A stretch of 64,000 bases of DNA from Squalus acanthias (GCA_030390025.1 CM059431.1:150166001-150230000), one strand, 5' to 3'; shown: positions 1-60,016, counted from the first letter of the stretch. A program made the numbers and translations. Notes: generated by a model from the letters alone, not told the origin.

Positions 1-500
1 TCGGAGGGTCAGTACGGAGCGAGTGCTGCACTGTCGGAGGATCAGTACTAAGGGTGCGCTGCACTGTCGGAGGTTCAGTACTGAGCGGGTGCTGCACTGT
101 CGGAGGTTCAGTACTGAGGGAGGGCTACACTGCCGGAGGTTCAGTACTGAGGGAGAGCTGCACTGTCGGAGGTTAGGTACTGAGGGTGCGCTGCACTGTC
201 AGAGGGGCAGTGCTGAGGGAACGCTGCACTGTCAAATGGACAGTATTGAGGGAGAACTGTATTGTCGAAGGGGCAAAAGTGAGTGAGCGCTGCACTTTCG
301 GAGGTGCAGAATTGAGGGAGCCCTGCACTGTCGGAACGGCAGTGCTGTGGGAACGCTGCACTTTCGGATGGTCAGTACTGAGGGGGAACTGTATTGTCGA
401 AGGGGAAAAACTGAGCGGGCGCTGCACTGTTGGAGTTGCACTATTGAGGGAGCGCTGCCCTGTCGGAAGTGCAATACTGTTGGAGTACTGTCTTGTCGGA
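1..500 (+). repeat. 33-bp tandem array (GCACTGTCGGAGGTTCAGTACTGAGGGAGCGCT-like), ~15 units, truncated by window start
   Basis: GCACTGTCGG or close variants recur at 28, 61, 94, 127, 160, 193; 11-aa periodicity in the spurious ORF 23..286. Confidence 0.9.
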
Positions 501-20784: not shown

Positions 20785-23116
20785 CAGACTCTCTCTTTAA
20801 AAAGGCCCCTTGATAGAAAGACTCCCTCTTTAATAAGGTCCCTGATGGTAAGACTCCAACTTTAAAATGTTCCCTGATGGTGAGACTCCTTGTTTAAAAG
20901 GGGTCCCTGATGGTGAGAATCTATCTTTAAATGGTGTGACTAATAGGAAGATTATCTTTAAAATGTATCCCTGATTTAAAAAAAAAACTCTCTCTTTAAA
21001 AGGGGCCCTTGATAGAAAGACTCCCTCTTTAAAAGTGGTCCCTGATGGTGAGACTCCAACTTTAAAATGGTTCCCTGATGGAGACACGTCCTCTTTAAAA
21101 GGGGTCCCTGGTGGAGAGACTCTATCATTAAAATACCTGAAGGGGATACTCCCTCTTTAAAAAGTCCCCTGATGTTGAGATTTACTCTTTAAAAGGTGTT
21201 CCTGATGCTGAAACACCCTCTGTAAAAGGGGTCCCTGATGGTGAGAGTCCCTCTTTAACAGGGGTCCCTAATGGAAAGATTTCCTCTTTAAAAGGGGACC
21301 TTGCTAGAAATACTTTCTCTTTAAAAGGGGTACCTGATAGAAAGACTCTTTCTTTAAAAGTGGTCCCTTATAGATAGACTCCCTCTTTAAAAAGAGTCCC
21401 TGATGCTGAATCACACTTTTTAAAAGGGGACCCCGATGGTGAGCCTCTTTAAAAGGGTTCCCTAATGTTGATACTCCCTCTTTAAAAGTGAACTCTGGTG
21501 GAGAGACTCTCTCATTAAAAGTGGTCTCTGATGGGGAAACACCCTCTTTAAAATGTGTCCCTTATGGAGACACTCCCACTTTAACAGGGGTCCCTGATGG
21601 TGTGTCGTGCTCTTTAAATGGTGTCACTAATAGGAAGATTATCCTGAAAAGGGGCCCTTGATAGAAAGAATCACCCTTTTAAATGGGTCCCCGAGGGTGA
21701 GACTCCCTCTTTAAAAATGCTCCCTGATGGAAAGACACTCGTTAAAAGGTGTCCCTGATGGGGAGACTCCCTCTTTAAAAGGTGTCCCTGATGGGGAGAC
21801 TCCCACTTTAAAAGGGGTCCCTGATGGTGAGATTCCAACTTTAAAACGGATCCCTGAGTGTGAGCCTTTCTCTTTAAAAGGGATCCCTGATGGTGAGTCG
21901 TACTCATTAAAATGGTTACTGATTGTACGACTCTCGTTGAAAGGCATCCCTGATCGAAATACTCCCTCTTTAAAACGGTCTCTGATGGTGAGACTCTCAC
22001 TTTAAATGAGATACCTGATCGTGAGATTTCCTCTTTAAAAGGGATCTCTAATCGGGAGACCTTCTCTTTAAAAGGGATCCCACATGGTGACTGCCTCTTT
22101 AAAAGGGATCCCAGATGGTGAGACTCAATCTTTAAAGGGGATCACTGATGTTGAGATTCCCACTTTAAAACGGGCCCCTGATGGTGAAACTTCCTTTTAA
22201 AAGTGTTCCCTAATGGTGAGACACTCTCTTTAAAACGAATCCCTGAGAGGAAGACTCCCTCTTTATAAGGGGAACACTGATGGTGAGACTCCCCCTTTAA
22301 AAGGGTTCGCTGATGACGAGAATCTATCTTTAAAATGTGTCCCTAATAGGACGAATCTCTTTAAAAGGTGTCCTTGATAGAAAGACTCCCTCTTTAAAAG
22401 GGATCCTTGATGGAAAGTCTTTCCCATTAAAGTGGTCCCTGATGGTCAGACTCTCTCTTTAAAATGGGTCCCTGATGTTGAGACTCCCTCTTTAATAGGA
22501 GTCCCTGATGCTGAAACACCATCTTTTAAAGGGGTCCCGAATGGGGAGACTCTCTCTTTAAAAGGGTTCGAATAGAAAGACTCCCTCTTTAAAAAGTGTT
22601 TCTGATGGTGAGACTCTCTCCTTAAAAGGGTTCCCTGATGATGAGAATCCCTCTTTAAACGGTGTCCCTGATGGTGAGATTCCCTCTTTAAAAGGGTCCC
22701 CTTATGTTGAGACTCCCTCTATAAATGGTGCCCCTGATGGTGAGACTCCCTCTTTAATATGGGACACTGACGTTGAGACCCTTGTTAAAAAGTGTCCCTG
22801 ATGGGGTGACTCCCTCTTTAAAAGGTGTCCCTGATGTTGCCAATCCCTCTTCAAAAGGGTCCCTTGATGGTGAGGCTCTCTCTTTAAAATATGTCCCTGA
22901 TGGTGAGACACCCGCTTTAAAAGTGGTCCCAGATGGTGAGACTCTCTCTTTAAAATGGGTCCCTGATGGAGAGACTCTCTTTAAAAGCGGTCACTGATGC
23001 TGAAACTCCCTCTTTATAAAGGGTCCCTGATGGTGAGACTCCCCCTTTAAAAGGTGTCGCTGGAGGAGAGATTCTCTCATTAACAGGGGTCCCTGACAGG
23101 GATACTCACTCTTTAA
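20785..23116 (+). repeat. 33-bp satellite (CTCTTTAAAAGGGGTCCCTGATGGTGAGACTCC)n, left block
   Basis: unit read directly; SLKGVPDGETP 11-aa periodicity in spurious ORFs. Confidence 0.95.
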
Positions 23117-25934: not shown

Positions 25935-28900
25935 AAAAGGGGACCAATAGAATGATTCCTTCTTTAAAAGGGTCTCTGATAGTGACACTCCCTCTTTAAA
26001 AGGATTCCTGAGTGTGAGTATCTTTAAAAGGGATCCCTGTTGGTGACTCACTCATTAAAAGGGCTCCCTGATAGAAAGATACCCTCTTTAAAAGTGATCG
26101 CTGATGGTAAGTCTCTCTTTAAGTGTGCTCCATTGTAGAAAGAATCCCTCTTTAAAAGGGCTGCCTGATGGTGAGGCTCACTCTTTAAAAGGGATCCCAG
26201 AAGGTAAGACTCACTCTTTAAAAAGGGTCCGTGATGCGGAATCGCCCTCTTTAAAAGGGGTCCCCGATTGTGAGGCTCGCTCTTTAAAAGTTGTCCCTGG
26301 TGGAGAGACTCTCTCTTTAAAAGGGGTAGCTGATAGAAAGACTCTATTTTAAAAGGGGTACCTTTTGGGGAGACTCTCTCTTTAAAAGGGATCCCTGATG
26401 ATGAGACTCCCGCTTTAAAATGGACCCCTGATGGTGATACACCCTTTTTAAAAGGGGTCCCTGATGGTGAGACTATTTCTTTAATAGCGGTCCCTGATAC
26501 TGAATCTCCCTCTTTAAAATGGGTCCCTGTTGGTGAAACTCCCTCATTAAAAGTGGTCCCTGATGGTGAGACTTTCTGTTTAAAATGAGTCCCTGATGGT
26601 GAGACTCCCTCATTAATAGGAGTCCCTGATGCTGAAATACCCTCTTTAAACGGGGTCCCTGATGGTGAGCCTATTTAAAGGGGTTCCCTAATGGGGATAC
26701 TCTCTCTTTAAAAGGGGTCCCTGACTGAAAGACTCTCTCTTTAAAAGCGGTCCCTGATGGTAAGATGCCCTATTTTAAAGGGGTCCCTGATAGTGAGACT
26801 CACTCATTAAAAGTGGTCCCTGATGGTGAGACTCCCTCTTTAAAAGTTGTCCCTGTTGGTAAGATTCCCTATTTAAAAGGGGCCCCTGATGGGGCGACAC
26901 CCTTTTTAAAAGCGGTCCATGATTATGAGACTCTCTCTTTAAATGGGGTCCCTGATGGAGTGGCGATCTCTTTAAAAGCAGGCCCTGATGCTGTAACTCC
27001 ATCTGTAAAACGGATCCCTAATGATGAGACTCTCTCTTTAAAAGGGTTCCCTGATTATGAGGCTCCGTTTTTTAAAAGGGGTCCCTGACGTGTATTCTCC
27101 CTCTTTAAATGGGTCCCTGATTGAGACACTCCCTCTTTAAAAGGGGTCCCTGATGGTGAGATTCTCTCTTTAAAAGGGGTCCCTGATGGTGAGACTCCTT
27201 CTCAAATGGGTCCCCGATGGTGAGATTCTCTCTTTACAAGTGGTCCCTGATGGTGAGATTCTCTCTTTACAAGTGGTCCCTGATGGTGAGATTCTCCCTT
27301 TAAAAGTGGTCCCTGATGGTGAGACTCTCTCTTCCGTAGGAGTCGCTGATGCTGAAACAGCCTCTTTAAACGGGGTTCCTGATGATGAGCCTCTTTAAAA
27401 GGGGTCCCAAATGGGGAGATTCTCTTGTTAAAAGGGGTCCGTGATAGAAAGTATCCCTCTTTAAAGTGTGTCCCTGATGCTGAAACAGCCTTTTTAAAAG
27501 GGTTCCCTTTTGGTGAGCCCCGATAAAAGTTCTCCCTATTGGGGAGACTCTCTCTTTAAAAGGGGTCGCTGATGGAAAGACTCTCTCTTTAAAAGTCGAC
27601 CCTGAGAGTGAGACTCCTTCTTTAAAAGGGGTCCCTGATGGTGAGACACCCTCTTTAAAAGCGGATCCTGATGGTGAGAGTCTCTCTTTAAAAGTGGTCC
27701 CTGGTGGAGAGACACTCACTTTAAAAGGGGTGCCTGATGGTTATTATCCCTCTTTAAAAGTGGCCACTGATGGTGATACTCTCTCTTTAAAAGGGGTCCC
27801 GGATGCTGAAATACCCTCTTTAAAATGGATTCCTGATGGTGAGATCCCCTCTTTAAAAGGGGTCCTTGATGGCGAGTTCCTCTCTTTAAAAGGGGTTCCT
27901 GATGGTGAGACTCTCTCTTTAAAAGGTGTCCCTGATGGTGAGACTCCCTCTTTAAAAGGGGTCCATGATGGTGAGACTCCCTCTTTTAAAGGGGCCACCG
28001 ACTGTGAGACTCTCGTTAAATGGGGTCCCTGATGGGGAGACTCCCACTTTAAAAGGGGACCCTGATGGTGAGAAACCATCTTTAAAAGGGTACCCAAACG
28101 GTGAGACTCTCGTTAAAATGGGTCCCTGATGGGTATAATCCCTCTTTAAATGTTGTCCCTGAATGTGAGACTCTCTCTTTAAAAGGTGTCCCTGATGGTG
28201 AGACACCCGTTTTAAAATGGTCCCTGATGGTGAGACTCTCTTTTTAAAACCGGTCTCTGATGCTGAAACTCCCTCTTTTAAAGGGGTCCCTGGTGGAGAT
28301 ATTCTCTCATTAACAGTGGTCCCTGACCGGGATACTCACTCTTTAAAAGGGACCCCTGATGGTGAGATTCTCTCTTTAAAAGGGGTCCCTGATGCTGAAA
28401 CACCCTCTTTAAAATGGAACCCTGATGGTGAGACTTCCTCTTCAAAAGGAATCCCTGATGGGGAATAACCCTCTTTAAAAGGTGTTCCTAATAGAGACAC
28501 ACCTTCTTGAAAAGGGCACCCTGATGGTGAGACATTCTCTTTAAAAGGTGTCCCTAATCGGAAGATTATCTTTAAAAGGGGTCCTTGATAGAAAGATTCT
28601 CTCTTTAAAATTGGAGCCCAAAGTGAGTCTCACTCTTTAAAAGGGCCCCCTGATAGAAAGACCACCTCTTTAAAAGGGATCCCTGATGGTGAGACACACT
28701 CTTTAAAAGGGGTCCCTGAGTGTGAGACTCTCTCTTTAAAAGTGACCCGTGATGTTGAGACTCACTCATTAAAAGGGCTCCCTGACAGAAATATCCCGTC
28801 TTTAAAAGGGTTCCTGATGGTGAGTCTCTCTTTAAATGGTGTCCCTGATGGAAAGATTCTCTTTAAAAGCGGTCCCTGATAAAAAGACTCCCACTTTAAA

Positions 28901-31900
28901 AAGGGACCTTGATAGAAAAACTCTCTCTTTAAAATGTTCTCTGATGGTGAGACTCTCTCTTTAAAAGGAATCCCTGATGGGGAAACAGCCTCTTTAAAAG
29001 GTGTTCCTCATAGAGACATACCCTCTTGAAAAGGGCACCCCGATGGTGAGACACTCTCTTTAAAAGGTATCCCTAATCGGAAGATTCTCTTTAAAAGATC
29101 TCCCTGATGGAAAGACTCAATCTTTAAAGGGGGTCCAGGATAGAAAGACTCTCTCTTTAAAATGGGTGCGCCAGGGTGAGTCTCACTCTTTAAAAGGGCT
29201 CCCTGATAGAAAGACCACCTGTTTAAAAGGGTCTCTGATGGTGAGACTCCCTCTTTAAAAGGACTCCCTGAGTGCAAGACTCTCTCTTTAAAAATGACCC
29301 GTGATGGTGAGACTCCCTCTTTAAAAGTGGTCCCTGACCGGGATACTCACTCTATAAAAGGGACCCCTGATGGTGAGATTCTCTCTTTAAAAGGACTCCC
29401 TGAGTGTAAGACTCTCTCTTTAAAAATGACCCGTGATGGTGAGACTCCCTCTTTAAAAGTGGTCCCTGATGGTGAGACTCCCTCTTTAAAAGTGTCCCTG
29501 GTGGAGAGTCTCTCTGATTAAAAGGTGTACCTGATAGAAAGACTCTATCTTTAAATTGTTTCCCCGAGGGAGAGACTCCCTCTTTAAAAGGTATCCCTGT
29601 TGGTGAGACTCCGTCTTTAAAAGCGGTCGCTGATGGTGAGACTCCCTCTTTAAAACCGGGTCCCTTATGATGAGACTGTCTCTTTAAAAGCGATCCCTGA
29701 TGCTAAGACTCATTCTTTAAAAAGGATCCCTGATGGTGAGACTCCCTCTTTAAAAGGAATCCCTGATGGTGAGACTCTCTCTTTAAAAGGGATCTCTGAT
29801 AGAAAGACTCCCTCTTTAAAAAGAGTCCCTGATGCTGAAACAACCGTTTTAAAAGGGGTCCCTGATGGTTAGCCTCTTTAAAAGGGGTCCCTGATGGGGA
29901 GATTCCCTCTTAAAAAATGGGCCCCTGTTGGTCAGATTCTCTCTTTAAAAGGTGTTTCTGATGGTGAGACACCCTCTTTAAAATTGGTCCCTCATGGCGA
30001 GTCACTCTTTAAAAGGTGTCCCTGATGGAGAGCCTCTCTTAAAAAGCGGTCCCTGATGCTGAATCACCCTCTTTAAAAGGGGTCGCTGATGGTGAGACTC
30101 CCTCTTTAAAAGTGATACTGATGGTGAGACTCTCTCTTTAAAATCGGTGCCTGATGCTAAAAGACCCCCTTTAAAAGGGGTCCCTGATGGTGAACCCCTT
30201 TAAAAGGTGTCCCAAATGGGAGACTCTCTCTTTGAAATGGATCCCTGAGAGAAAGTCTCCCCCTTTAAAAAGTGTCCCTGATGCTGAAACACTCTCTTTA
30301 AAAGGGTTTCCTGATGATGAGCCTCTTTAACAGGGGTCCCTAATGGGGAGACATTCTCTTTAAAAGGTGTCCCTGATAGAAAGACTCTCCCGTTAAAATG
30401 TGTCCACGAGTGTGAGACTCCCTCCTTAAAAGAATTCCCTGATAGAAAGACTCTCTCTTTAAAAGTGGTCCCTAATGGTGAAACTCCCTCTTTAAAAGGG
30501 GTCCCTGATGTTAAGATCCCCTGTTTAAAAGGTGTCCCTGATGTTGAGACACCCTCTTTAAAAGCGGTCCCTGATGGTGAGACTATCTCTTTAAAAGCGG
30601 TCCCTGATTCTGTAACTCCCTCTGAAAAAGGGATCACTGACAGTGAGGCTCCCTCTTTAAAAGTGGTCCCTGATAGAGAGACTCTCTCATTAAAAGGGGT
30701 ACCTGATGGGTATACTCCCTCTTTAAAACGGGCCCCTCATGGAGATAGTCCCTCTTTAAATGTGTCCCTGATGGTGAGACACTCTCTTTAAAAAGGGTCC
30801 TTGATGATGAGATGCCTTCTTTACATGTGGTCCCTTATGGTGAGACACCCTCTTTAAAAGGGGACACTGACTGATGTATGAAAACTACTAGGCACTTGGT
30901 CTAAGCGTTAAACAAAGCTTTAATCAACTGTTTTTCAACATGGAGGTCTAGTTGCATCCTTTACTGGTTCCTGTAAAGGAATGTCCTAAGCAAGCTGGGC
31001 CCATGCCCTAGTAATTACACTCTCCCTGGACAGCGCCACCAGAAGGCCGGCCAGTATTATTTCATACATGAATGACAAGATTCATGTCACAGACGGTGAG
31101 ACGCTCGTTGAAATGGTTCCCTGAAGGTGAGACTCCCTCTTTAATTGGAGACGCTGATGCTGAAACACCCTCTTTAAAAGGCGTCACTGATGGAGACACT
31201 CCCTCTTTAAAAGGGGTCCCTGATGGTGAGACTCTCTCTTTAAATGGTGTCCCTGATAGAAAGATTCTCTTTAAAAGGGGTCCCTGATAAAAAAGACTCC
31301 TACTATAAAAAGGGAACTTGATAGAAAAACTGTCTCTTTAAAATACTCTCTGATGGTGAGACTCTTTCTTTAAAAGTGTACACTGATGGAGAAACTCTAT
31401 TTAAAAAGTGTCCCTGATGCTGAAACACCCTCCTTAAAAGGGGTCCCTGATGATGTGACTCCCTCTTTAAAAGGGGTCCCTGGTGGGGAGAATATCTCAT
31501 AAAATGGTGTCCCTGATAGAAAGACTCTCTCTTTATAATGGGTCCCCGAGGATGAGACTACATCTTTAAAATTGGTCCCTGATAGAAAACTCTCTTTAAA
31601 AGGTGTTCCTGATAGTAAGCCTCCCTCTTTAAAAGGGTCGCTGATGGTGAGACTCCTTCTTTAAAATGGGTCCCTGATGGTGAGACTCCCTCTTTAAAAA
31701 TGCTCCCTTATGGTGAGACACAATCTTTAAAATGGATCCCTGATGGTGAGACAACCTCTTTAATTGGAATCCCTGATGCTGAAACACCTTCTTTAAAAGG
31801 GGTCCCTGATGGTGAGCCGCTTTAAAAGGCTTCCCTCATGGGGAGATTCCCTCTTTAAAAAGTATCCCTGATGCTGAAACACACTTTTTAAAAGGGTTCC

Positions 31901-32520
31901 CTAATTGGGAGAAACTCTCTTTAAAAGGGGTCCCGGATAGAAAGAATCTCTCTTTCAAAGACGTCCCTGATGGTAAGGTTCCCTCTTTACAAGGGTCCCT
32001 GATGGTGAGACTCACTCTTCAATAGGTGTGCCTGATGGTGAGACTCCCTCCTTAAAAGCGTTCCCTGATGGTGAGACTCACTCTTTAAAAGGGCGGCTCC
32101 CTGATGGAGAAACTATCTCTTTAAAAGCGTTCCCTGATGCTGAAACTCCCTCTGTAAAAGGGATCCGTGATGGTGAGACTCCGTCTTTAAAAGGGATCCC
32201 CGATGGTGAGACTCCCTCTTTAAAAGTGGTCCCTGGTGGAGAGACTCTCTCACGAAAAGTGCTCCCTGATGGGTATACTCCCTCTTTAAAAGGGGTCCTT
32301 GATGGCCAGTCTCTCTCTTTAAAAGGTCCCTGATGGTGTGATTCCCTCTTTAAAAGGGGTCCCTGATGGTGACAATCCCTGTTTAAATGGGATCCCTAAT
32401 GGTGAGACTCTCTCTTTAAAATGAGTCCCTGATGCTGAAACATTCTCTTTAAAAGGGGTTCCTGATGGTGAGTCTCCCTCTTTAAATGGGGTCCCTGAGG
32501 GAGAGACTATCTCTTTAAAA
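25935..32520 (+). repeat. 33-bp satellite, right block
   Basis: same unit as 20785-23116; interrupted at 30872-31091. Confidence 0.95.
30872..31091 (-). mobile_element. putative solo LTR (220 bp)
   Basis: unique sequence inside the satellite; minus strand TGT..TCA termini; ATTAAA near its 3' end; GAC on both flanks. Confidence 0.55.
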
Positions 32521-43655: not shown

Positions 43656-44089
43656 CCACTTAGAGCACACAGCACACCTACCGGTCATTGGCCCAGAGCG
43701 TGTCCCAAAGTTCGAACCAAACATTTACGCAAAAACTGACAGCCAAACAGATGAAGCTCTCGCCCACCCCGCCCCCAACTGCACTGTATCCCGCGCTCTC
43801 TGCAGCCGCTGGCGCTCTGGCCATTGTTCTGCGCCCCCCGCCCCCGGCCCAGCTCTCCACATACCTGTGAATGTGACTGCGCGGGGCCTTGCAGATGGCT
43901 ACGCGACCGTGCATCCGCACACCTTCGCGGGAACATTGATGCAACCTCGAATTAATGTAAATAATTGTGAAAGTCAGGGAAGTGTCGTAAATTGATAGAC
44001 TTTCTGTTGGAGATGTTTATGACATTGCCTATACTGAACAATAAGAAAACTGAATTTTATAGCCTGGCCCCTACCCGAGATATCGGAAC

Positions 44090-45285
44090 TGTAGGCTTCG
44101 CAAAATCCCCCAGAAACTCGAACAGAGCCCTAAAGGGAGTGAGTTTTGGACTTTTCATACAAACTTCAGATGATGGGGCCTAAGTGAAGTGATTTGATGT
44201 AAAAACCTATAGATCATGGAAGAAAAACCTGAGGAAAATGATTTTTTAAAAATTCTGATTGTTGGGAGAGACATTTTTTTCACAGACACAAGCTGCGAGG
44301 GGCTGGGCCGGTCAGTGAACAGATCAAGCTGCCTGGGAATTGTTTGAGTCAAAGCAAAACTCACAAACACATTCAAATTTGGATCCCCAGGGGCAAACAA
44401 GATGCTGGAAATCTAAAAACGATTCAATGACAATATAACTTCGATCACACAGTTTCATAGCCATTATCCCATCGAAAAAAACAATCAACCAGGTTTCCTC
44501 AGAACAGATTTAAAAGCCCGCCAACAGAAGGACAATAGGGTGGAGATTTGGCGCGTAAGTAAGGCTGTGTTTTAATGGGCCAAACGATTAACACTAAGCA
44601 AAAACCATCGGAACTGGCAAGCCCGCCAAAAACTAGACAATTGGACTAAGCAAGGTTTATTTACAATCAAAAAGGAATTCGTTTTAGTAAGGGGTTTTTG
44701 GGCGCAAAAAAGAAACAGTATAATTTGAGATTCTGTGCCATAATTTCTCTCTTTTTCGGACTGAATGACGACGCGGACACAGCTCTCTCCCTGCTCCAGC
44801 AAAAATTACCTCAAGCTACGAGGAAGAAGGCCAGAAGACAAGCACACAAGAAGATACCAGAGTGACTGCCTCAGTGACCATCAGACACCTCGCAGCAACA
44901 AGGGCATAACGGAGTCCTTTTAAACAAAAGACTCTAATATCCTGTCAAGGATTCGTTGGTGAGCATTATCCCTGATCTCCTGAAACCTAAAACCTAGCCA
45001 GATAGTGGGATCTTTGGGAGGGATAAGTTTTTGTTTGATATATTGTCATTTCCCTCGCTTGTACCGTGTGTTCCCCGAATCTGTGTTGAAGTAATAAGTG
45101 TGTTTCAAGTGTGTTACCTTTTTCCTTTAATAAAGTAAAATTCTTTCATCAGAACCTGTTTACTGCAATTTTGTTCACAATCCCTAAATAAGCCCAAAGT
45201 CAAGGAACCGGAGGGGTGTTGGAGCGATTCGAACCGCTCACTGTGTCAGAAAGCGAAGGCTGACCCCATCAATATACCCCTTACA
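44090..45285 (+). repeat. 5' LTR (1196 bp)
   Basis: direct repeat of 51859-53029; TG..CA ends; AATAAA ~45129; possible TATA-like ATTTAAAA ~44507. Confidence 0.95.
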
Positions 45286-45289
45286 TAAA

Positions 45290-45307
45290 TGGCGACCGTG
45301 GCAGGAG
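45290..45307 (+). promoter_or_regulatory. primer-binding site, tRNA-Arg(TCG)-like
   Basis: TGGCGACCGTGGCAGGA starts 4 nt after the LTR; complement of the recalled tRNA-Arg 3' end TCCTGCCGCGGTCG-CCA with 1 mismatch. Confidence 0.75.
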
Positions 45308-45489
45308 TTTGGCGAAAGGGTTGTGAAGCAGTAAATGCTGGTTTTGAGGAGAGAACAAAAATGGAAGAGAGGATGTCATCCTATGTATATAAAAAAGTAA
45401 ATATCACCAAGAAATGGGTCCTCAGGCTGTTGCATGCTGAACGTCCCATGGACGCTGCAGCTGCATGGACTGAGAGCAAGGAATACAAT

Positions 45490-46232
45490 GGGCCGAAAAT
45501 TGATCCCGGGAAGCGAGAGTACGCACTGTGTACTCTCGCGTATTCCCACTCCAATTGCCGGTGTTCTGCATGCCCTGCGCATGCGCTGAAAACCGGCAAT
45601 TGCTCTTCTGAAAAGGGGGCGGGTCCTGGGTGCATCGCGTGCGCGCTACAGGCTGCGCGCACGCTGTGCACTTCATGCTTTGGACGCGCAGGTAAGTAGG
45701 GAAGATTTTGGAAATGTAAAAAGGAGGAGTAAGAGTCGCTTTTAAGAAGGTAAGTAGTGAATTAAGTATTTTTTTGAATTTTTTTTTACAGGTATATCTT
45801 TTTTAGAGACTTTAAAGACAGGTAAGTTTATTTTTATAACTTTTTAAAAGATTTTAAATTTTTTCAAAAATTTAACTTTTTATTTAAAATGGTTAATTTA
45901 ATTAACTATACTTATTTTATTAATGTGATGTTTTTTTTTTAAATTTAATTGAGGTTTAGCTGTTATTTTGGGGGAGTGTAAGATTCATAGATTTCACAGC
46001 AGGTCTGTGAAACTTATGAATGGAAGATGGTGTGTTGCCATTGGCTCTAACTGAGTCACGTGATCCCACAGCGCGCACGAATTCACTACGCCGCTGGGAT
46101 AAGCAAGCCCAGCACAGCTGATGTCTGGAACATCAAGTTCGTGCGAGCTGCATCTGAAAAAGCACAAGCGAGGTGAGACTTCGCGGGGAAGGCTTACCCC
46201 CGCGGGAACAGAGCGAGATCAATTTCTGGGCC
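45490..46232 (+). mobile_element. Harbinger-like MITE, copy 2, inserted in gag
   Basis: imperfect 19-bp TIR GGGCCGAAAATTGATCCCG / CGAGATCAATTTCTGGGCC; 3-bp TSD AAT (45487-45489, 46233-46235). Confidence 0.85.
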
Positions 46233-47839
46233 AATAAGTCTGTGGATAAAGCCATATGGTTGGTCTGCTCCCAGAAACAAATGCAGCTTATGGGAAGTGT
46301 ATTCAGGCTCTCACAGAAGAGCTAAAGAAAGAAAGCCAACTGTCCCGTGCCAGAGCTGTAGCAGGAGATAGATTGTTAGCAGAGCTCGGCCCAAAAGATC
46401 AGGAACAGTCACAGATGCTGGAGGAACACCGTGCCAGTAAGGGATACCTCCAGTATCAGTCCACCGAGGCCAAAAGTAGTGAACTGGCATTGCGGGAACA
46501 GAACACCCGCCTTGCCAAGCAATTAAGGGAACTCACAATGAAGTTAAACGATGTTCAGGCAGCCTATAGAATAGCCAGTAAAAGGGAGTTTGAGGTAGGG
46601 GACCACGGCCCCTCTCAGAAGCAGATTGAGAGTCTGAACCTTGCTCTGATCAAGACAAAAGGCATGCTGTGCCTGATAAGCCCGGGTGCGGCCCAGGCAG
46701 ACCTGGTAGAGCAGGGGGAGACTGTTCGACCACCACCTGTGGCGCCAAGGAGAAGCTTGTTTAGGCAGCAGAAGGTGCAGACAATCTGTGAGGCTGACAG
46801 GGAGTGCACACCAGCACCTGTGGCGCCGAGTTTTGACTCGGTCTGGCAGCAGGGAGAGGGGGGCGAACCGATGCAGGAGAAGTCGGAGCCAGGGCCAATG
46901 TTCCCAGCACGACAGCAAAAATTCGGCCCGCACGCCGGTTGTGGAGGTCAGCGACCCCTTGAAAGTCAATTCTTGGCTCCCCACGGTACACAAGAGCTTA
47001 GGGCTATGGTAAGCCACCAGAGTAAACTTACCCAAAAGGAAGACCCCGCAGTTCACTTCATGGAGGTGGAACAATCAGCAGCCATTAACGATTGTGACGA
47101 TGCCGAAATGGCAAAATTGCTCCTGTTCTCATTAGATGGGAAATTGTACCAGTCACTCTCTAATGAGAGCAAGAGAGGACAGAACGGGTGTGCTGCCCTC
47201 AGGGAGGAAGTTTTAGAGGCCATGGGAATGAATGAGGGAAGTCCTTTCTCCCGGGTGGAGAAAAACAGTGCAGCTCGCAGGGGTGATCCCACAGGCTTTC
47301 GCAGACAGGCTGTGGCCGGTGTACATGGTTGCCTGTAATGGGGCTCTCGACAGGGCTAACCTGAACAGGGACGAGCTGGCCCACTGGCTCCGTAACCTAG
47401 TGGCAAACAGCTTGCCACGAGTCAAAGCCATGGCTCAGCTTTGGTTTGACCCAAGAGATCCCCGGGTCACCGAGGAGGCAGTGGTCTGGCAACTGACCCT
47501 AGCCTACCGGAACGGTAGGGGAGCTGAAGACACCCCACTGAAAGGGATGGTGTATGAGATAAAGCCCAGTCAGGATAAGAAGGAGTGGGACCTGGAAGGT
47601 GGTAAACCTTCAGACATGAAGCGTAACTGCTTCGGGTGCGGGAAGAGTGGGCACTGGAGAAAGGACTGTAGAAATCCCTGGAAGGATATGCTGACAAAAA
47701 ATTCCCCAGCTTTTGCCCCAAAAGTAGAGGCACTGACCTCTTCCCCCACACTGGACACAATAGTAGCGGCCATCAGAGTCCTGTTTGGTGGCCCAGGGAA
47801 GGTAGCTACTGGTGCATTAATCCCATCAGACCCCCCCTA

Positions 47840-48290
47840 ATGCAGACCTATGACTGGAACCAGCGCAGCCTGTCTACCTGTGTTCCCCTGGGATACGATG
47901 TGAAGAAGGGGGTGGAGAAAGTGCAGGGGAGATGTTTGGTGGACACCGGAGCCGCCAGCACGGTGGTCCATTCGGCAGACCTGACCAATTCACTCAGGTC
48001 TAGCGGGGTCCCGTACAGTTTAATGGGAATCACAGGGAACAAGCAGGCTGGGGCCATATCCAAACCTTTGGACATAGATTTAGGATCCCTCCATACCACG
48101 TGGGAGGGTAACCAAAAGGCCGACAAGTTGGCCAAGCAGGGGGCCAGTGAAGAAGAGTTATGGGATCCCTATAATGCAGGTCAGGTAGCTGCAATCCGGG
48201 ACAAGGGAGGCACACAGGGGAGAGCTTAGCCCCCGGACTTAAAGCAGGTCCAAGCCCAGCATCCCGTCTTTAAGTCCGGCCTGGTAGAGA
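47840..48290 (+). pseudogene. pol: pol remnant: aspartic protease fused directly to RNase H C-terminus
   Basis: CLVDTGAASTVV (retropepsin DTG), then ..HTTW|EGNQKADKLAKQGA (GN..AD..A RNase H motif) and DLKQVQAQHP; no YxDD, HHCC or DD35E seen. Confidence 0.82.
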
Positions 48291-49263
48291 GAGTGAGGGG
48301 AGTCCCTCGGAGGTCCTTTCAGGGCAGAGGACCAGATTTTTAAACAGAATCACTGGCAAGCAGCCAGTAACCTGGGGAGCCAGCACCAGAAAGATAGGCT
48401 GCTGTTAGAACCCCAGAGAACTCACGAGTGGGAGATTGACCAGTGCAAACTGTTTAAACCTAAAAGGGAACAGCCGGCAAAGGTGGATTGCCCCCAAGTT
48501 AGAAATCCGCAGCCAGCCACAACTGTGGCAGACGCACAAGCTGCAGCGGGAGGGACAGTGTGTTGTCTCACAGGAGAGGTCACTCCACCGATTATGTGGG
48601 GCTCAAGCACACCCCCAGTGGCCAGAGCCCTAAGAAGGTCTCCCCGCACACCACAGCAAAGGCTACTGTGGCAACAGGTGTATCTGTTAAGAGGGTCCCA
48701 CCCAAAGAGGGTTGCAATCCGAAGAAGGGCGCCCAAGAGCAGGGAGCGTTCTAAAGTTGGGGATTCCCAGCCTACAGCCTCCAACAGTGAGGGTTTCACA
48801 GGAGAGGTAGTACTGGAAGGAGAGAGAGAGAAGGGTCCCCCGCCCACAGCCTCAGGCTGGGAGGAGCCCACAGATATGAACGAGGGCGCTGCAAACACAC
48901 CAAAGTGGGTAGTGTGCTGCAGCACAGGACGCAGCTGGGATGTTAAGATACCCCCAGCGGATTTGAGGAAGGCCTTCTGGGTCTGCGGTACAGGCCGCAC
49001 GACACCCAGGTGTACAAGCCATCCAGAGGCCGCATAAGGCAGAGACTAAACAGAATTTAACCTGGCCGCCCGGAGACGGGCGGCAAATGAACATAAATTT
49101 GGGTTTTTAAGTAATTGCAGTTTTGGTGGTTTTGAGTTATCATTAGTTTCGTTGTTTGTAGAGTTTTTTTTAAGTTTAAGGGCTTGATTGATTATCCAGC
49201 CGGAGAACCTTTCTGGGACATGGACATATGTTTTGTGTGTGCCCCTACAGAAAGGACTTCGGG

Positions 49264-51482
49264 ATGACAAGGTTTCTGCTCCTCTTCGCCCTGGTAGGGG
49301 TGAGCATCGGCTACCGAGGTGACGTGGAGGACTCCCACATCTATGGGTGCTCAGGAGTGAGAGCACCAGTCGTCACTGCAGGGGGTGGCGAGCGAGTAGT
49401 GGTGGAGCTCGCCATCTACTTCCACGAGGGGAGGTGGCCAGGGTGGCTGGGGTCCAACTTTACTAAATAATCCACCCAGCCCGGGTTCACGTACGGGGAG
49501 GCCTACCTCCCATGACCCAGAATGCAGGTCGTTGCCACCAGGGTCAGTGTCACCGAGGGGAAGCGTATGTGCCTTACCTGTAAGGGACGAATTCCCCTGA
49601 CTAGGTGGTGGTGGCTCAGGAAGCTGAGCAGGGACGCAGTGTACCATACAGCCGACTGGGAAAGATTAGGGAACGACACCCACCGGACAATCACAGGGAC
49701 CCAAGGAGAAGTTAGTGTTTGTTGGGATAAGTGGTGGGAGTCGGAACAGGGAGTCTATGGTTGTATGTGGGGATCATAGGAAGCCTGCCCCACAGGGGTA
49801 TCCATCATCTTCTCCAGCCAATGGCAAGATGCCGGGGAGGGGATAGGGTGTGATTCTAGCCTGCATGGGTGCGTGGTGCCACACATTCAGGTCCCAGTTA
49901 ATGCCACTGAACTCGTGGCACACACCCGAAAGCCCCTACCCACGACCCAGGTACCGAAAACCCTGGAAGAAAAGTGCCCTACCACCACCAAGGGACCAGG
50001 GAATGGGTTAGTCCTAGCACCAAACGAAAAGGTACTATACCAGGGGGAACACTATGCAGTAGCTTCAGTAATATTAAACCTTACCGAGGTATACTTACCT
50101 GTGTGGTGTCCTAAGGAAACGGAGCAGCTGTACCAGGCCCTGCTGAAGGAAATGTTTAGGAAATTTTACGAATTTGATTTTGCCAATATAGACAAAGTAG
50201 AGCTATACAGAATACACCCTAAGAACCCTATGGGCACGGGTAGACAAAGAAGGGGAGCCTGGAATGATGTCTTCACTGCCTATAGTACAGGGTCCTCTGT
50301 AATAAATAGCCTGAATGACATGGAATTACAGACACAGATAAATGGTTGAAAAACCCAGTTCAGTAAGATCCTGAAGGATGGGAACACAGTGGTAGGCTCA
50401 GAGCTACATGAGGACCAAGCTTTGAAGGATCATTTAAAGGAAATTATTGCAGAATTGGAAAGGCATGCCAAAACAGTAAATTCACTCATACGGGAGGATA
50501 GGAATGCATCGGATCAGGCTGCACAGAATGAGGTGTGTGTGCTGTACGGGGCATGGTTACTGGGCGAGGACCGTCGCAACCTGGAGGATTTAAAGCAAGG
50601 TTTAGTCCCCTCCTGGATCAGCAACAAGCACCTTACAGCCCTCAACCCGTTTAGTAATTCGCTGAGTCCATGCCAATTTCGTCTAGCCTCTGAAGCCTGC
50701 CCTGTCCCAATAGATTGTGGGCGTTCAAATCACACTATCATGGGGATAGTAGTGAGAATGCCAGTCATGAGTGGGACAGCCCGACCCGTACCGGTATACA
50801 GGGCGGAGAACAGTGGAGTAATTCAAGGGGGTGCACACATCCGTTTTACAGCGGTCCCACCTTATGTCATAAAGTGGGAGGAAGGCATGACAGGTACTGA
50901 CCTCTCCGGGTGCCGGAGCCGGGGTTCACACATAATACTGTGTCCCCAGCACTTGACCGCCTATTCCAAACCACAGTGCGGGTTTAAAGCTGCTGGCGCA
51001 CGACCTATCAATTGCACAATGGAGGTGATGGCACACGGCCATGTTTCCCCACAGGTAGCATATATATGGGGTGGGACATATTGTGTCATCACAGGTGCGT
51101 CCCACTACCAGCATGGACACTTCTGGTGTCCGGTAAGTGACAGCAGTTTCTGCTTTAAACCCGAGGCAGAAGTTCAAGTTGCCCAGGAACGGATTGTCCC
51201 CATTCCTGAAACCTTCACTCTTCACCTCACTGTTACAGAAAACATTACAAACCTGCAAAAGTATTTGACATCCTACTTAAAGCTGCAGAGATTTCAAAAA
51301 AACATTTCTACATCCTGGAACAGAAAACATTTGAAATAGGGGCAGAGATTTTGGATATAGTAGTTCAAAACTGGTGGGATATTTTCGAGAATATAGCGGT
51401 GCCGTCCTGGATGAGGATGGCTTCCCATCTTTTGGTGGTCTGCCAGCTCGGGATAGTTCTCTACCTGCTGTGTACAAAGTGA
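49264..51482 (+). pseudogene. env: env-like glycoprotein: signal peptide, Ig-like domain, furin site, F-type fusion ectodomain, TM
   Basis: acceptor CCCCTACAG at 49250, ATG 49264 MTRFLLLFALVGVSIG; four ORF pieces in one frame (stops 49468, 49777, 50347); RQRR|GAWNDVF; frameshift ~51270-51340, then QNWWDIF..HLLVVCQLGIVLYLLC. Confidence 0.85.
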
Positions 51483-51846
51483 AGGGGTAGGGACGAGGAG
51501 CTCCGCTGCAGACACGAAGGTACTTGGGAAGTGCATCAAAATAAAGGCTATGGCCGGGGATGGAACAAACCTTGAATTTTGTCTTTTAATAAAAAAAATT
51601 GTATGTGTGTTGTTTCATTTTTATGATGTGTATGATGTGTTTTTTCTAAGCTGTGCAGGGGTGTCGGACCCTCTCCGTGCTTGGATGTGAAATAAAGATT
51701 GATTCTTACCTGTATGTACCTGAAACCCCACTTTCAAAAGGGGAATTAATGTTTGGGTTTTTAGTTTATGTAATACAGGGGAAGGTTGCTTTTCGGGGAT
51801 CGGTAATTTTGCTCACCTGTTAATGATACTAATTCAGTGTTAGTAT

Positions 51847-51858
51847 GAAAGTGGGGGA
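51847..51858 (+). promoter_or_regulatory. polypurine tract
   Basis: GAAAGTGGGGGA immediately before the 3' LTR. Confidence 0.85.
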
Positions 51859-53029
51859 TGTAGGCTTCGCAAAATTCCCCAGAAATTCGAACAGATCCCT
51901 AAAGGGAGTGATTTTTGGACTTTTCATACAAACTTGGGACGATGGGGCCTAAGTAAAGTGATTTGATGTAAAAACCTATAGATCAGGGAAGAAAAAACTG
52001 AGGAAACTGATTTTTTTTTTAATCTTATTGTTGGGAGAGACATGTTTTTCACAGGCACAAGCTGCGAGGGGCGTGGCCGGTCAGTGAACAGATCAAGCTG
52101 TCTGGGAATTGTTTGAGACAAAGCAAAACTCACAAACGCATTCAAATATGGATCCCCAGGGGAAACAAGCTGCTGGAAATCTAAAAACGATTCAATGACA
52201 ATATAACTTCGATCACACAGTTTCATAGCCATTATCCCATCAAAAAAACAATCAACCAGGTTTCCACAGAACAGATTTAACAGCCCGCCAACAGAAGGAC
52301 AATAGGGTGGAGAGTTGACGCGTAGATAAGGCTGTGTTTTTAAATCGGAAAACGATTAACACTAAGCAAAAACCATCGGAACTGGCAAGACCGACAAAAA
52401 CTAAACAATTGGACTAAGCAAGGTTCATTTACAATCAAAAAGGAATTCGTTTTAGTAACGGGTTTTTGGGCGCGAAAAAGAAACAGTATAATTTGAGAGC
52501 CTGTGCCATAATTTCTCTCTTTTTCGGACTGACTGACGACGCGGATACGGCTCTGTCCCTGCTCCAGCAAAACTTACCACAAGTCACGAGGAAGAAGGCC
52601 ATAAAACCAGCACGCAAGAATAAACCAGAGCGACTGTCTCAGTGACCATCAGACACCTGGCACATAAACAAAAGACTCTAATATCCTGTCAAGGATTCGT
52701 TGGTGAACATTATCCCTGACCTCCTGAAACCAAAAACCTTGCCAGATAGTGGGATCTTTGGGAGGGATAAGGTTTTGTTTGATATATTGTCATTTCCCTC
52801 GCTTGTACCGTGTGTTACCCGAATCTGCGTTTAAGTAATAAGTGTGTTTCAAGTTCGTTACCTTTTTCCTTTAATAAATTAAAATTCTTTCATCAGAACC
52901 TGTTTACTGCAATTTTGTTCACAACCCCTAAATAAGCCCAAAGTCTAGGAAAAGGAGGGGTGTTGGAGCTATTGGAACCGCTCACTTTGTCAGAAAGTCA
53001 AGGCTGACCCCATCAAGATACCCCTTACA
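51859..53029 (+). repeat. 3' LTR (1171 bp)
   Basis: collinear with the 5' LTR; scattered substitutions and a ~25-bp indel near 52660. Confidence 0.95.
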
Positions 53030-53593
53030 GAACCACGCAGAAGGAGATAAGCAAAGATCTCCAGACACCTCAGGAGCTTTTGATAAGATCACCTGAAAAC
53101 CCGAGAATGGCTTGGATCCGATGTCACGTGTGGCATGATATTGGGATACGGTTTTGTGCGTGAACGAACGAGTCTCAAACATGCTTCGTTATCGACAGCA
53201 GCACAACATGAAATGGCTGATGTGGCTCAGGAGAGTGAGACACTTTTTAAATCATAAAGGCCACGACACAGTCTCCATAGAGAAACAGATTTGAAATATT
53301 CAGGATAGTGTTAAACACCCTGTCAGAGGCATTACAATTAAAAGTCAAGATAATGCTCATCAAATTAGGATTTCCTTACCGCTAACTTTGTCGTCAGCTT
53401 CAAGGCCTCTACTAAGTATTGAACAAAGAAAGATTGTAGGGAGGGTAAAAACAACAGATATTAACGGAGGCCGAGACCTGTCTCTGTCTGGACAAGGTGG
53501 ACATGGTTGTATCCAAATCAGCTACAAGCTGAAGGTGTGAGACCAGGAGGCCATAACTTACAGGTTCCATAACAAAACATGGATCCAAGTGAG

Positions 53594-54760
53594 AGGCAAC
53601 CTGCATGAGAAAGCAGAAGACATCAAAAGGGTTTAATTTGTAATCTGTGTTAAACCGAGGTGCAGCATCTCAATCGCCTAATGTCGGTGATAATAGAGAA
53701 AGAACCCTAAAGCAGGCTCCTTGGGAAGATTGGGAGTCCCGTATGCAGGAGACCAGGAAGATCCCGCTGAACCAGGTGAGATGGGACACACCCTGACCCC
53801 AAACACTAAATTGGTCACTGAATTCATAGGGTTCAGTTAAAGACTTAATATCAGACTAGGACAAAAATGAATTCGAGAACATTGTAAAAGACTTCAATAC
53901 AAACTTACAAGAAAACTTCAGCAAGTTATTTTAAAGTAACAAATGTCTTATGTTGATAAGTAATATTAACTATTGCTTTGCCAAGTACAAACGCTGATGG
54001 TGATCAACGTAACACTAAAACCTTTGTGACACCAAAAGAAAGACATCCCAACTCACAAACTGATCTCTACCTGTCCGATCCAGCAAAATAACCCAAACGC
54101 TGATGGACTAGAAATAATTGAATCAGGAAATGTATGTGTGTGTTGAAATTATACAGGTTGCGGTAAACTTGAACTTGAATCTGTCAACCAGATTATGTGA
54201 TGGGAGTTATTCACAATTAATAGGCAAAATGGAAGGAGAATGAGTAAATAATGTGCTAGTAAAGAACATAAAATAGGAACCAAGGGCTGAGGAAGATGAG
54301 GAGCAGAAGGAGAATCAGTTTAAATCGAGAAGGAAGCCAGGGATGGCAGAATGGCGATGAATAGGAGCCATGGCAAGGTTAGCGGGACTAAGCAGAATCG
54401 ATATAGAAAGTATGGAGGAACACGACGAGATAATGAAGAGGCATTTAGAAAGATTGTTTGCAAACAATGAGTTTAACCAGAATCAGGACCTTACTGGATT
54501 CCTATGTGACATTTGTGATGAATGTGGTACAGAAGTGTCTTACTGCAATTATTTCGGGCCCTGGGTGTGTCCCATTCCACCTGGTTCAGGGAGTCTTCCT
54601 GGTCTCCCGCATACGGGACTCCCAATATTCCCAAGGAAACGGCTTTAGGGATCTTTTTCTACTACCGCCGAAATAAAGCTTTTGAGACGCCATACATCGG
54701 TTTAGCACTGATTCCAAAACTAACCATTTTGAGGTCTTCTGCTTCATCATGGAGGTCACC
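53594..54760. repeat. ~200-bp diverged inverted repeat (53594-53793 / 54562-54760)
   Basis: TTGGGAGTCCCGTATGCAGGAGACCAGGAAGA versus TCTTCCTGGTCTCCCGCATACGGGACTCCCAA, alignable for ~200 bp. Confidence 0.85.
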
Positions 54761-54769
54761 ATGGAGGCC

Positions 54770-55500
54770 ACTCTGATATACGCCACACACAACATAATAA
54801 ATCTCTGATATACCGCAAACCCCTGAATTTAAGACTTTGATATACCCTACGCCCCACACTGTAACACTGTGATTTACCCGGCATCACTTATTGTAATACT
54901 CTGATATACACCACACCCCTCACTGTAACACTCCGAGAAACACAACACCCCTCACTGTAACACACTGAAATAGACCACACCCCTCACTGTAACATTCGGA
55001 TATACCCTACACCCCTCACTGTAACACTCTGATTTACCCCACATCACTCACTGTAACACTCTGATATACTCCACCTCCATTACTGTAACACACTCTGCTA
55101 TACTCCATACCAATCACTGTAACACTCTTATATAGCCCACACCCCACACTGTAACATACACCGATATACTTCACACACCTCAATGTAATACTCTAATATA
55201 ACCCACACCCTCACTGTATCATTATAATATAGCCCACACCCCACACTGTAACATACACCGATATACTTCACACACCTCAATGTAATACTCTAATATAACC
55301 CACCCTCACTGTATCATTATAATATAGCCCACACCCCTCACTGTAACACTCTGATACATGCCACACTCTGGATTATTATCCCCACACTACTCACTGTAAT
55401 ACTGATATTCCTCACATCCCTCACTGTAGCCCTCTGATACATGCCACACTCTGGAAGGTTTCACCCCACACTGTAATACTGAAATAAGTCGCACCACTCA
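54770..55500 (-). repeat. 32-bp satellite, inverted counterpart of 4740-6770
   Basis: (CTGATATACCCCACACCCCTCACTGTAACACT)n. Confidence 0.92.
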
Positions 55501-58862: not shown

Positions 58863-59764
58863 TCATCCTTTAATGAATTTTACAATCAGAGTAAAGGGAT
58901 ATTTCCCCATATTCTTCAACTGCTCTCTGAACTTAGTCTGGGTCACGGCATAAATCCCTGTGTTTGTGCAGCAACTCAGCATCTGCAGCATCAATCCCAA
59001 TTCCAGTAAATAAAGAGGAGCATTTACAGACAAAGGACTGATAGACCCTATCCGGCTCCATATGTAAATCACCATAAACACTGCCCATAACAGGATGAAA
59101 TTGCCCGAGATAACAAGCAGTAAAATGATGGATTTCCTGCGGCTCTCCATCTCTGGGTCTCTCTGAATCTCACCACTGCTGGGACCCAGGAATCTCCTGC
59201 GGGCTTTGCTGGCCACTAAAATGTGTTTGACGGTGAGAACATTGAACAGCAGAATCAGAACAAATGGGACCGCCGGGGTGAGACTATAATGAAGGAGCTC
59301 AATTGCTGCCCAGGCACGTGATTTCAAAACATCGATTGTTACTTCACAAAACCAGGGAATGTTGTAAAGCCCATACCAAGCTGTGAACATAAAATACCAG
59401 GAAATGTTCTTTGAGCCGCTCAGCACAGTCACTGTTCCCAGAATCACAGACGCCGTTTTCTCGGTGCAATACTTCGTTTTCAGCTTCTGGCGACAAATGG
59501 CCACAAATCGATCGAAGGTGAAACTGACGGTGAACCAGACAGAACAGTCTGTGGCTGCATAAAGCAGGACGGCGTGGATATTACACACGGGAATGGACCG
59601 CACGAAATAAAAATGTTCCAAATAAACAATCGGAATGTGCCTCAGTATCAGGTCGAGGAAAACGACCAGTAGATCCGCTGCTGCCATGGCCAGCAGGTAG
59701 CGAGTGACACATTTGGAGAGACCGCACTTTCCCCGAGACAGGATCAGAATCGTCACTAAGTTCA
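58863..59764 (-). CDS. GPR139-like class A GPCR, open main exon (end of TM1 to TM7); first exon outside the window or not identified
   Basis: uninterrupted ~300 codons; acceptor TTTCCCTTGCTCACAG ending at 59765; LAMAAADLLV, CNIH, FTFDRFVAIC, PFVLILLFN, SCCTNTGIYAV. Confidence 0.85.
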
Positions 59765-60016
59765 CTGTGAGCAAGGGAAATAAACAGGGAAATTATACAT
59801 CAGGCTGGGAGCAAGAGCAGAAGTTTGGAGGAATTCGGGGAGAAATCAGCAACTCATAAGCGACATTCAATGATATAATCTCATTCGATTACCCGTGGAG
59901 CTAAATACAGGGTTTATTGTAAGAATGATCGGGAATACAGTGAAGAATCAATCAATGAAACGGGGCTAAATACAACAGGAAAGTAACAGATTTTTGATCA
60001 ATGAGAGATTAAATGG

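What the first reader, a model, noticed from the sequence alone, without database searches (positions are those of the whole stretch)
44090..53029. Complete provirus with lokiretrovirus-like architecture in a shark-type genome
Seen: paired ~1.2-kb LTRs, 4-bp TSD GAAC, PBS, PPT, gag with a long coiled coil and one CCHC knuckle, DTG protease, retroviral-type RNase H tail (GNQKADKLAK), and an env lacking CXXC/ISD/CX6CC motifs. Established: lokiretroviruses are a sister lineage of retroviruses whose Env resembles Mononegavirales fusion (F) proteins. As I recall, they were reported from lampreys, bony fishes, amphibians and reptiles; I do not recall a cartilaginous-fish report. Inference: this is a loki-like, or independently F-capturing, LTR retroelement lineage in a chondrichthyan.
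Basis: partly seen in the sequence, partly recalled or inferred. Interest (0 to 1): 0.88.

Follow-up and report, generated by a model that had tools for sequence, protein, structure and literature searches.

The report
Polymerase-less shark retrovirus, measles-type envelope
This is a dead, polymerase-less copy of an abundant shark-type endogenous retrovirus that is not a lokiretrovirus but a deep-branching true retrovirus near the snakehead-fish virus, and its envelope is predicted to fold like the fusion protein of measles-type viruses, which hints that this may be the oldest kind of retroviral envelope.

Summary
LTRs, GAAC target duplication, PBS (tRNA-Arg), PPT, coiled-coil Gag with one CCHC knuckle, DTG, RNase H tail and env are confirmed. 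The element is bounded but not complete: about 3 kb of pol (RT, tether, integrase core) is missing, and the same deletion junction occurs 206 times in the genome, so this is a non-autonomous subfamily spread by pol-bearing siblings. Sibling RT falls inside retroviruses proper (100/98); grouping with lokiretroviruses is rejected (p-AU 0.006). The nearest named virus is snakehead retrovirus (SnRV; RT 44%, Arg primer, in-frame gag-pol stop), but trees neither resolve nor reject that grouping, and tether and integrase are closer to loki. The Env model matches paramyxo/pneumovirus F (Foldseek 6e-10) and foamy Env, with a probable N-terminal Ig V domain. The family profile also detects the Envs of walleye dermal sarcoma virus, foamy viruses and SnRV, but not gamma-type Env. 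SnRV-like ERVs are already reported in a cartilaginous fish; an F-type Env in them was not found in my searches. The scan reached similar readings on other DNA of this genome. Verdict: loki reading wrong by RT, F-type Env right; moderately interesting for the origin of retroviral Env.

The parts
44086..44089 (+). left target-site duplication GAAC
44090..45285 (+). 5' LTR (TG...CA, 1196 bp)
   Evidence: 85 substitutions in 1170 columns against the 3' LTR, K2P 0.076
45290..45307 (+). primer-binding site for tRNA-Arg(TCG)
   Evidence: 16 of 18 bases complementary to the host tRNA-Arg(TCG) 3' end here, 18 of 18 in siblings L022, L026, L031 (the CCA part is inferred)
45289..47850 (+). gag, broken: coiled-coil N-part, CA-like part (inferred from position), one CCHC knuckle at about 47628-47669
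   Evidence: tblastn of a sibling's natural frame gives four pieces at 84-97%; Pfam zf-CCHC
45490..46231 (.). 742-bp young MITE-like insertion in gag with short terminal inverted repeats and an AAT duplication (Harbinger-type is a recalled label)
   Evidence: absent from siblings; 40 of 40 scored places full length at 98-100%
47851..47853 (+). TGA that separates gag and pol in frame in siblings (readthrough site, inferred)
   Evidence: TGA-CTG context in window, L033, L034, L039
47854..48103 (+). N-terminal half of the aspartic protease with DTG at 47942
   Evidence: Pfam RVP E 0.036, below cut-off; 59% to sibling protease
48104..49045 (+). pol remnants: RNase H tail, integrase fragments and long C-terminal tail, after deletions of about 2.1 kb, 0.85 kb and 0.14 kb
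   Evidence: first junction 206 exact copies genome-wide, control 0
49228..51575 (+). env, broken: signal peptide, probable Ig V domain (about 49525-49791), Pro/Thr linker, F-type core (about 49996-51216) with RQRR site at 50242, TM at about 51405-51479
   Evidence: 91% and 83% to a natural open sibling frame; model and fold searches on that sibling frame
51844..51858 (+). polypurine tract
51859..53029 (+). 3' LTR (1171 bp)
53030..53033 (+). right target-site duplication GAAC

Best explanation
A dead, integrase-inserted copy of a non-autonomous subfamily of a large chondrichthyan ERV family. The family is a true retrovirus of the deep, SnRV-like grade (clade Huo / class III in the broad sense), not a lokiretrovirus. 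How it worked: LTR transcript, tRNA-Arg priming, Gag-Pol by readthrough of an in-frame TGA (inferred), and an Env made of an F-type (class Ib) fusion core cleaved at RQRR, with an N-terminal Ig-like arm as the probable receptor-binding part (inferred). The deleted subfamily kept LTRs, PBS, PPT, gag and env, and borrowed RT and integrase from pol-bearing siblings (inferred from the repeated junction); purifying selection on shared env variants suggests spread through enveloped particles. This copy then decayed and took a MITE in gag. Shown: anatomy, deletion, copy counts, RT placement outside loki, Env homology. Predicted: Env fold. Inferred: readthrough, trans-complementation, receptor role, infection route.
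Confidence: 0.8

Rival explanations
1. The family, with the frog and coelacanth 'NYNRIN-like' elements, is a separate, unnamed lineage that branches between lokiretroviruses and all named retroviruses (SnRV included), keeping an ancestral tether, integrase and F-type Env. This refines the best explanation rather than replacing its mechanism.
For: RT-to-RNase H tree 98/99 and RT+tether tree 91/94 exclude the family from SnRV + the rest; the tether still scores as Gypsy-type RNase H (PF17917 E 8e-19); the integrase tree joins loki with this lineage at 84/88, and with its frog/coelacanth part at 94/93.
Against: AU tests do not reject a clade with SnRV (p 0.54, 0.29) nor an integrase tree that keeps loki outside (p 0.097); the RT-only tree leaves the branch open at 53/17; SnRV and foamy rows are long; only 2-3 loki rows; the literature already treats the SnRV-like clade as a possible ancestral branch rich in coelacanth and amphibian elements (PMC4977317, passage).
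Confidence: 0.4
2. A true lokiretrovirus, the first in a cartilaginous fish.
For: Dual RNase H, F-type Env, tether and integrase nearest loki; Wang and Han found none in six chondrichthyan genomes, so it would be new.
Against: RT lacks the PFG-x-x-NS / HKA-x-PD signature seen in the published loki rows and has LPQG; family+loki rejected p 0.006; loki+Gypsy split from the family at 100/99 in both longer trees; a loki RT motif pattern found 0 places in this genome (not proof of absence); the printed Loki-Rca Env lacks the long N-terminal arm and has a more hydrophobic fusion peptide (by eye).
Confidence: 0.04
3. A recombinant lineage: SnRV-like RT with a loki-derived tether and integrase (or the donor of loki's integrase).
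For: Domain-wise best matches alternate between SnRV (PR, RT) and loki (tether, IN); Wang and Han infer repeated integrase replacement and place loki IN with CGIN1/NYNRIN.
Against: Shared slow-evolving ancestral states give the same BLAST pattern; the IN conflict is not significant (p 0.097); RNase H, which lies between tether and IN, is not loki-best.
Confidence: 0.15
4. An env-bearing Ty3/Gypsy element (errantivirus-like) that captured an F gene independently.
For: F-type Envs are common in invertebrate Gypsy elements (10.1101/2023.10.26.564294, passages); weak Baculo_F lead (score 0.75).
Against: Separate retroviral RNase H after a tether; RT inside retroviruses at 100/98; that paper found no vertebrate homologues of its elements.
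Confidence: 0.01

Closest known systems
Snakehead retrovirus (SnRV) and the SnRV-like / clade Huo ERVs, including CmiERV lineage I of elephant shark (PMC4422223; PMC6001957; PMC12193657; record L083, whose RT equals the SnRV row of PMC7947760)
   Same: Nearest named RT (44%), protease and pre-RT linker; Arg-type PBS; single CCHC knuckle and coiled-coil Gag; in-frame gag-pol stop; homologous Env core over 350 columns; cartilaginous-fish members already reported.
   Different: TGA rather than TAG at the junction; Env 796 v 1134 aa with a short tail; no 3'ORF seen; tether and integrase nearer loki; clade with SnRV not resolved; this copy lacks most of pol.
Lokiretroviruses (Wang and Han, PMC7947760)
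   Same: LTR-gag-pol-env, dual RNase H, F-type Env with RXXR site; tether 38% and integrase 39% identical; a long coiled-coil stretch (theirs is called smc).
   Different: RT outside loki (p-AU 0.006), LPQG motif, N-terminal Ig-like arm on Env; the coiled coil lies inside the Gag frame.
Foamy virus Env / paramyxo- and pneumovirus F (class Ib fusogens; PMC11468914)
   Same: Predicted fold and sequence profile match the shared F core.
   Different: Signal peptide plus Ig-like arm instead of the foamy leader peptide and RBD; Gag has a CCHC knuckle; RT is not foamy.
Frog and coelacanth proteins annotated 'NYNRIN-like' (P0002, P0004, P0005)
   Same: 42-45% over RT to RNase H; same RT clade at 94/92; the P0002 model ends in sequence like the V-set start of Env relative P0049 (by eye).
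   Different: Automatic gene annotations, not described viruses; other hosts.

Membership tests
Lokiretrovirus | RT groups with loki as sister to all other retroviruses | tested here: not met
   (p-AU 0.006); three loki proxies L098-L100 that match the published rows by eye
Lokiretrovirus | Dual RNase H (tether + RNase H) | tested here: met
   siblings; deleted in the window copy; shared with all retroviruses
Lokiretrovirus | Env related to Mononegavirales F, with signal peptide, RXKR-type site, coiled coil, TM | tested here: met
Lokiretrovirus | Integrase of the CGIN1/NYNRIN group | tested here: inconclusive
   groups with loki IN 84/88, p-AU 0.097; no CGIN1 sequence in the tree
Lokiretrovirus | Optional smc gene | not tested
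   only a coiled-coil stretch inside Gag was seen; not compared with loki SMC
Retroviridae proper (ortho + spuma) | RT inside the retroviral clade | tested here: met
   100/98, 100/99
SnRV clade / clade Huo | RT forms a clade with SnRV | tested here: inconclusive
   nearest named RT, but open fork; p-AU 0.54 and 0.29; longer trees put SnRV with other retroviruses
SnRV clade / clade Huo | SnRV-type layout: Arg primer, one CCHC, in-frame gag-pol stop | tested here: met
SnRV clade / clade Huo | Env homologous to SnRV Env | tested here: met
   hhalign 85.9%, E 5e-6; 0 of 500 shuffles higher; not specific, walleye and foamy Envs score higher
SnRV clade / clade Huo | Accessory ORFs and spliced transcripts as in SnRV | not tested
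   no transcript data were examined
Spumaretrovirinae | RT groups with foamy viruses; Gag without CCHC | tested here: not met
   fish foamy-like ERVs were not in the tree
Gamma/epsilon ERVs with TLV_coat Env | RT in the class I clade; TM with ISD and CX6CC | tested here: not met
Ty3/Gypsy errantivirus-like | RT in Metaviridae | tested here: not met

The most novel reading that the evidence does not exclude
The F-type (paramyxovirus-like) fusogen is the ancestral retroviral envelope. It survives in lokiretroviruses, in this shark/frog/coelacanth lineage (possibly the deepest branch of retroviruses proper, below SnRV, and the source or sister of the loki/NYNRIN integrase), in SnRV, in foamy viruses, in a second shark lineage and in the walleye epsilonretroviruses. 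The familiar gamma- and beta-type Envs would then be later replacements, and host-like Ig V domains were added to the F core as binding arms.
Probability: 0.4. Interest if true: 0.8.

Novelty: new variant of a known kind. Interest (0 to 1): 0.55.

Why it matters
Wang and Han left four scenarios open for the origin of retroviral Env because only loki then had a recognisable F-like envelope; foamy Env joined in 2024. One Env profile from this family links SnRV, walleye-virus and foamy Envs and folds onto paramyxovirus F, across every deep RT branch sampled here except the gamma/SSSV/Xen-1 types. That favours an F-type ancestral Env and makes the question testable with an Env tree against an RT tree. 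The family also gives abundant natural sequence for a poorly sampled part of the retroviral tree, and shows a pol-less subfamily that kept env. The single locus itself is an ordinary decayed provirus.

Full report
Observation. The 5' LTR runs 44090-45285 and the 3' LTR 51859-53029, both TG...CA, with GAAC on each outer side. The LTRs differ at 85 of 1170 columns (K2P 0.076). The PBS is complementary to host tRNA-Arg(TCG): a pattern for that tRNA end has 426 matches against 0 for its control, and ARAGORN calls tRNA-Arg(TCG) in 2 of 2 loci scanned; this copy matches 16 of 18 bases, three siblings 18 of 18. Gag has a coiled-coil part and one CCHC knuckle. It is interrupted by a 742-bp insertion that has 40 of 40 scored full-length matches at 98-100% and by a frameshift. 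env has at least four stops and a frameshift.

Not complete. Against a pol-bearing sibling, the protease stops shortly after DTG and joins the last residues of RNase H; two more gaps remove the integrase finger and core, about 3 kb in all. This is not damage at this site. Of 20 env-selected loci, 13 have the same deletion, 4 have pol and 3 have another pol-less layout; a 32-base stretch across the first junction occurs 206 times, control 0. Env matches: 122 scored of 8681 candidates, all 85-100%; RT matches: 144 scored of 16823, all 91% or more; both are lower bounds. I infer a non-autonomous subfamily moved by siblings' RT and integrase. Env variants shared between copies are mostly synonymous (83 v 40; omega about 0.14) whereas singletons are not (101 v 190; 0.56) in 18 copies, which suggests that Env was in use during spread; the loci were chosen for similarity to env, so this is indicative only. 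None of the four pol-bearing loci read was free of breaks.

Host. The nearest named Pol is a Heptranchias perlo protein (85-89%); Env relatives at 60-78% come from a skate, a sawshark and a catshark, and at 20-38% from other sharks and frogs. A cartilaginous fish is very likely; the species was not determined.

Is it loki? Sibling Pol is PR-RT-tether-RNase H-IN. Its RT has LPQG; the published loki rows that I read have PFG (PMC7947760 supplement parts 73-75). I fetched references through the tools: SnRV (L083, 10,688 nt, RT equal to the printed SnRV row), gamma, epsilon, foamy and class II records, and three metagenome contigs whose RT matches the printed loki rows. In a 40-row RT tree loki is sister to 30 rows that include the family (100/98), and holding family and loki together is rejected (p-AU 0.006). 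Both longer trees agree (100/99). Wang and Han list six chondrichthyan genomes, none marked positive, and a loki motif pattern finds 0 places in this genome.

What then? SnRV is the nearest named virus in RT (44%, 214 bits, against 33-35% for loki), protease and pre-RT linker, and ties with Xen-1 in RNase H. It shares an Arg-type PBS (label recalled), one knuckle and an in-frame gag-pol stop (UAG readthrough per PMC13517186; the family has TGA). SnRV-like ERVs are reported in elephant shark (PMC4422223), and clade Huo in all major vertebrate lineages (PMC6001957). Against simple membership: the clade with SnRV is neither recovered nor rejected (p-AU 0.54 and 0.29); RT-to-RNase H and RT+tether trees place SnRV with the other retroviruses (98/99 and 91/94) and leave the family with frog and coelacanth 'NYNRIN-like' elements below; tether and integrase are closer to loki; and loki integrase groups with this lineage at 84/88, not significantly (p-AU 0.097). 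ERV-L, fish foamy-like ERVs, CmiERV and Odin were missing from the trees.

Literature seen. PMC7947760: parts 1-3 of 4, supplement parts 1, 73, 74, 75 and passages. PMC4422223: part 1 of 2, supplement not read (it holds the CmiERV sequences and may bear on novelty). PMC12583693: passages, section 9, supplement search (files 9 and 10 not searched). Passages only: PMC6001957, PMC4977317, PMC12193657, PMC11468914, PMC13517186, PMC10699275, PMC9447858, PMC13709493, PMC11521997, 10.1101/2023.10.26.564294, 10.1101/2024.03.17.585361, 10.64898/2026.05.06.723177. Not seen: Hart 1996 (not held), Calcraft 2024 and Hayward 2015 (cited through others). F-like Env is in print for loki and foamy viruses. I found no statement of it for SnRV, SnRV-like ERVs or walleye viruses, and no chondrichthyan loki, in searches; the library lacks most subscription papers, and the errantivirus authors announce a vertebrate study. 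The shark Env survey of 2026 selected ISD/CX6CC proteins only.

Earlier notes of this scan on other DNA of this genome reached the same readings: SnRV-near not loki, F-like Env, Ig-like arm. I had formed my reading before seeing them; one prompted the search that fetched the SnRV record. They are not independent evidence.

Verdict. A real, decayed, pol-deleted provirus of a large chondrichthyan family of deep-branching true retroviruses near SnRV, with an F-type Env. The loki claim is not supported; the F-type Env is. New variant of a known kind, interest 0.55. The boldest reading not excluded, that F-type Env is ancestral to retroviruses and that this lineage lies between loki and SnRV, I put at 0.4.

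Noticed in passing
window 44090-45285 v 51859-53029: The LTR pair differs by 55 transversions and 30 transitions, an odd ratio for neutral decay; six siblings have 97.4-98.6% LTR identity. An older insertion fits the 94-96% internal identity to siblings, but gene conversion or a hybrid pair is not excluded.
   Followed up: partly
L021 (G000:C7:148565201-148575200): An inverted duplicate of this insertion 1.6 Mb away, 98.5% identical, with the same flank, TSD and MITE.
   Followed up: partly
window 47854-49045; L025, L026, L032: The deleted pol stays in one frame of about 400 codons across its deletions in three siblings, and its remnants are only 59-69% like sibling Pol while gag and env are about 90%: a long-lived subfamily that exchanged gag and env with helpers.
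   Followed up: partly
L029, L036, L038: A second pol-less layout: divergent gag, then after the stop a roughly 250-codon coiled-coil frame in place of pol, then the same env.
   Followed up: no
window 45289-45307: The first ATG of the gag frame overlaps the start of the PBS, here and in siblings, so the leader is very short or a later ATG is used.
   Followed up: no
L115:5962-9648; BFVD Q9WHI8, A4GTG3: Envs of walleye dermal sarcoma and epidermal hyperplasia viruses match the F-type model and profile; not found stated in my searches.
   Followed up: partly
L083:6131-6430: The start of the SnRV Env frame looks Ig-like by eye (V-x-V...LTC...W...YQC) but the profile score there is negative.
   Followed up: no
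L061-L076: Two further families in this genome carry related F-type Envs on different Pol branches ('shark B' with this lineage, 'shark C' nearer foamy and class I).
   Followed up: partly
window 58863-59792 (-): Intronless 309-aa rhodopsin-family receptor frame (7tm_1 E 1.8e-19), of the expanded GPR139-like kind recalled for sharks.
   Followed up: partly
G000:C26:39.0-42.2 Mb: Long tandem arrays, 1.6-kb unit, that carry tRNA-Arg(TCG) and tRNA-Ser(GCT) genes; 426 pattern matches genome-wide.
   Followed up: no
window 1-479, 4811-6756, 20786-23116, 25957-32520, 54769-55356: 32-33-bp minisatellite arrays, up to 200 copies, among decayed LINE-like frames.
   Followed up: no
window 53599-54756: Long inverted-repeat pair (163-nt arms, 81%) just right of the provirus, probably a non-autonomous DNA transposon.
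   Followed up: no
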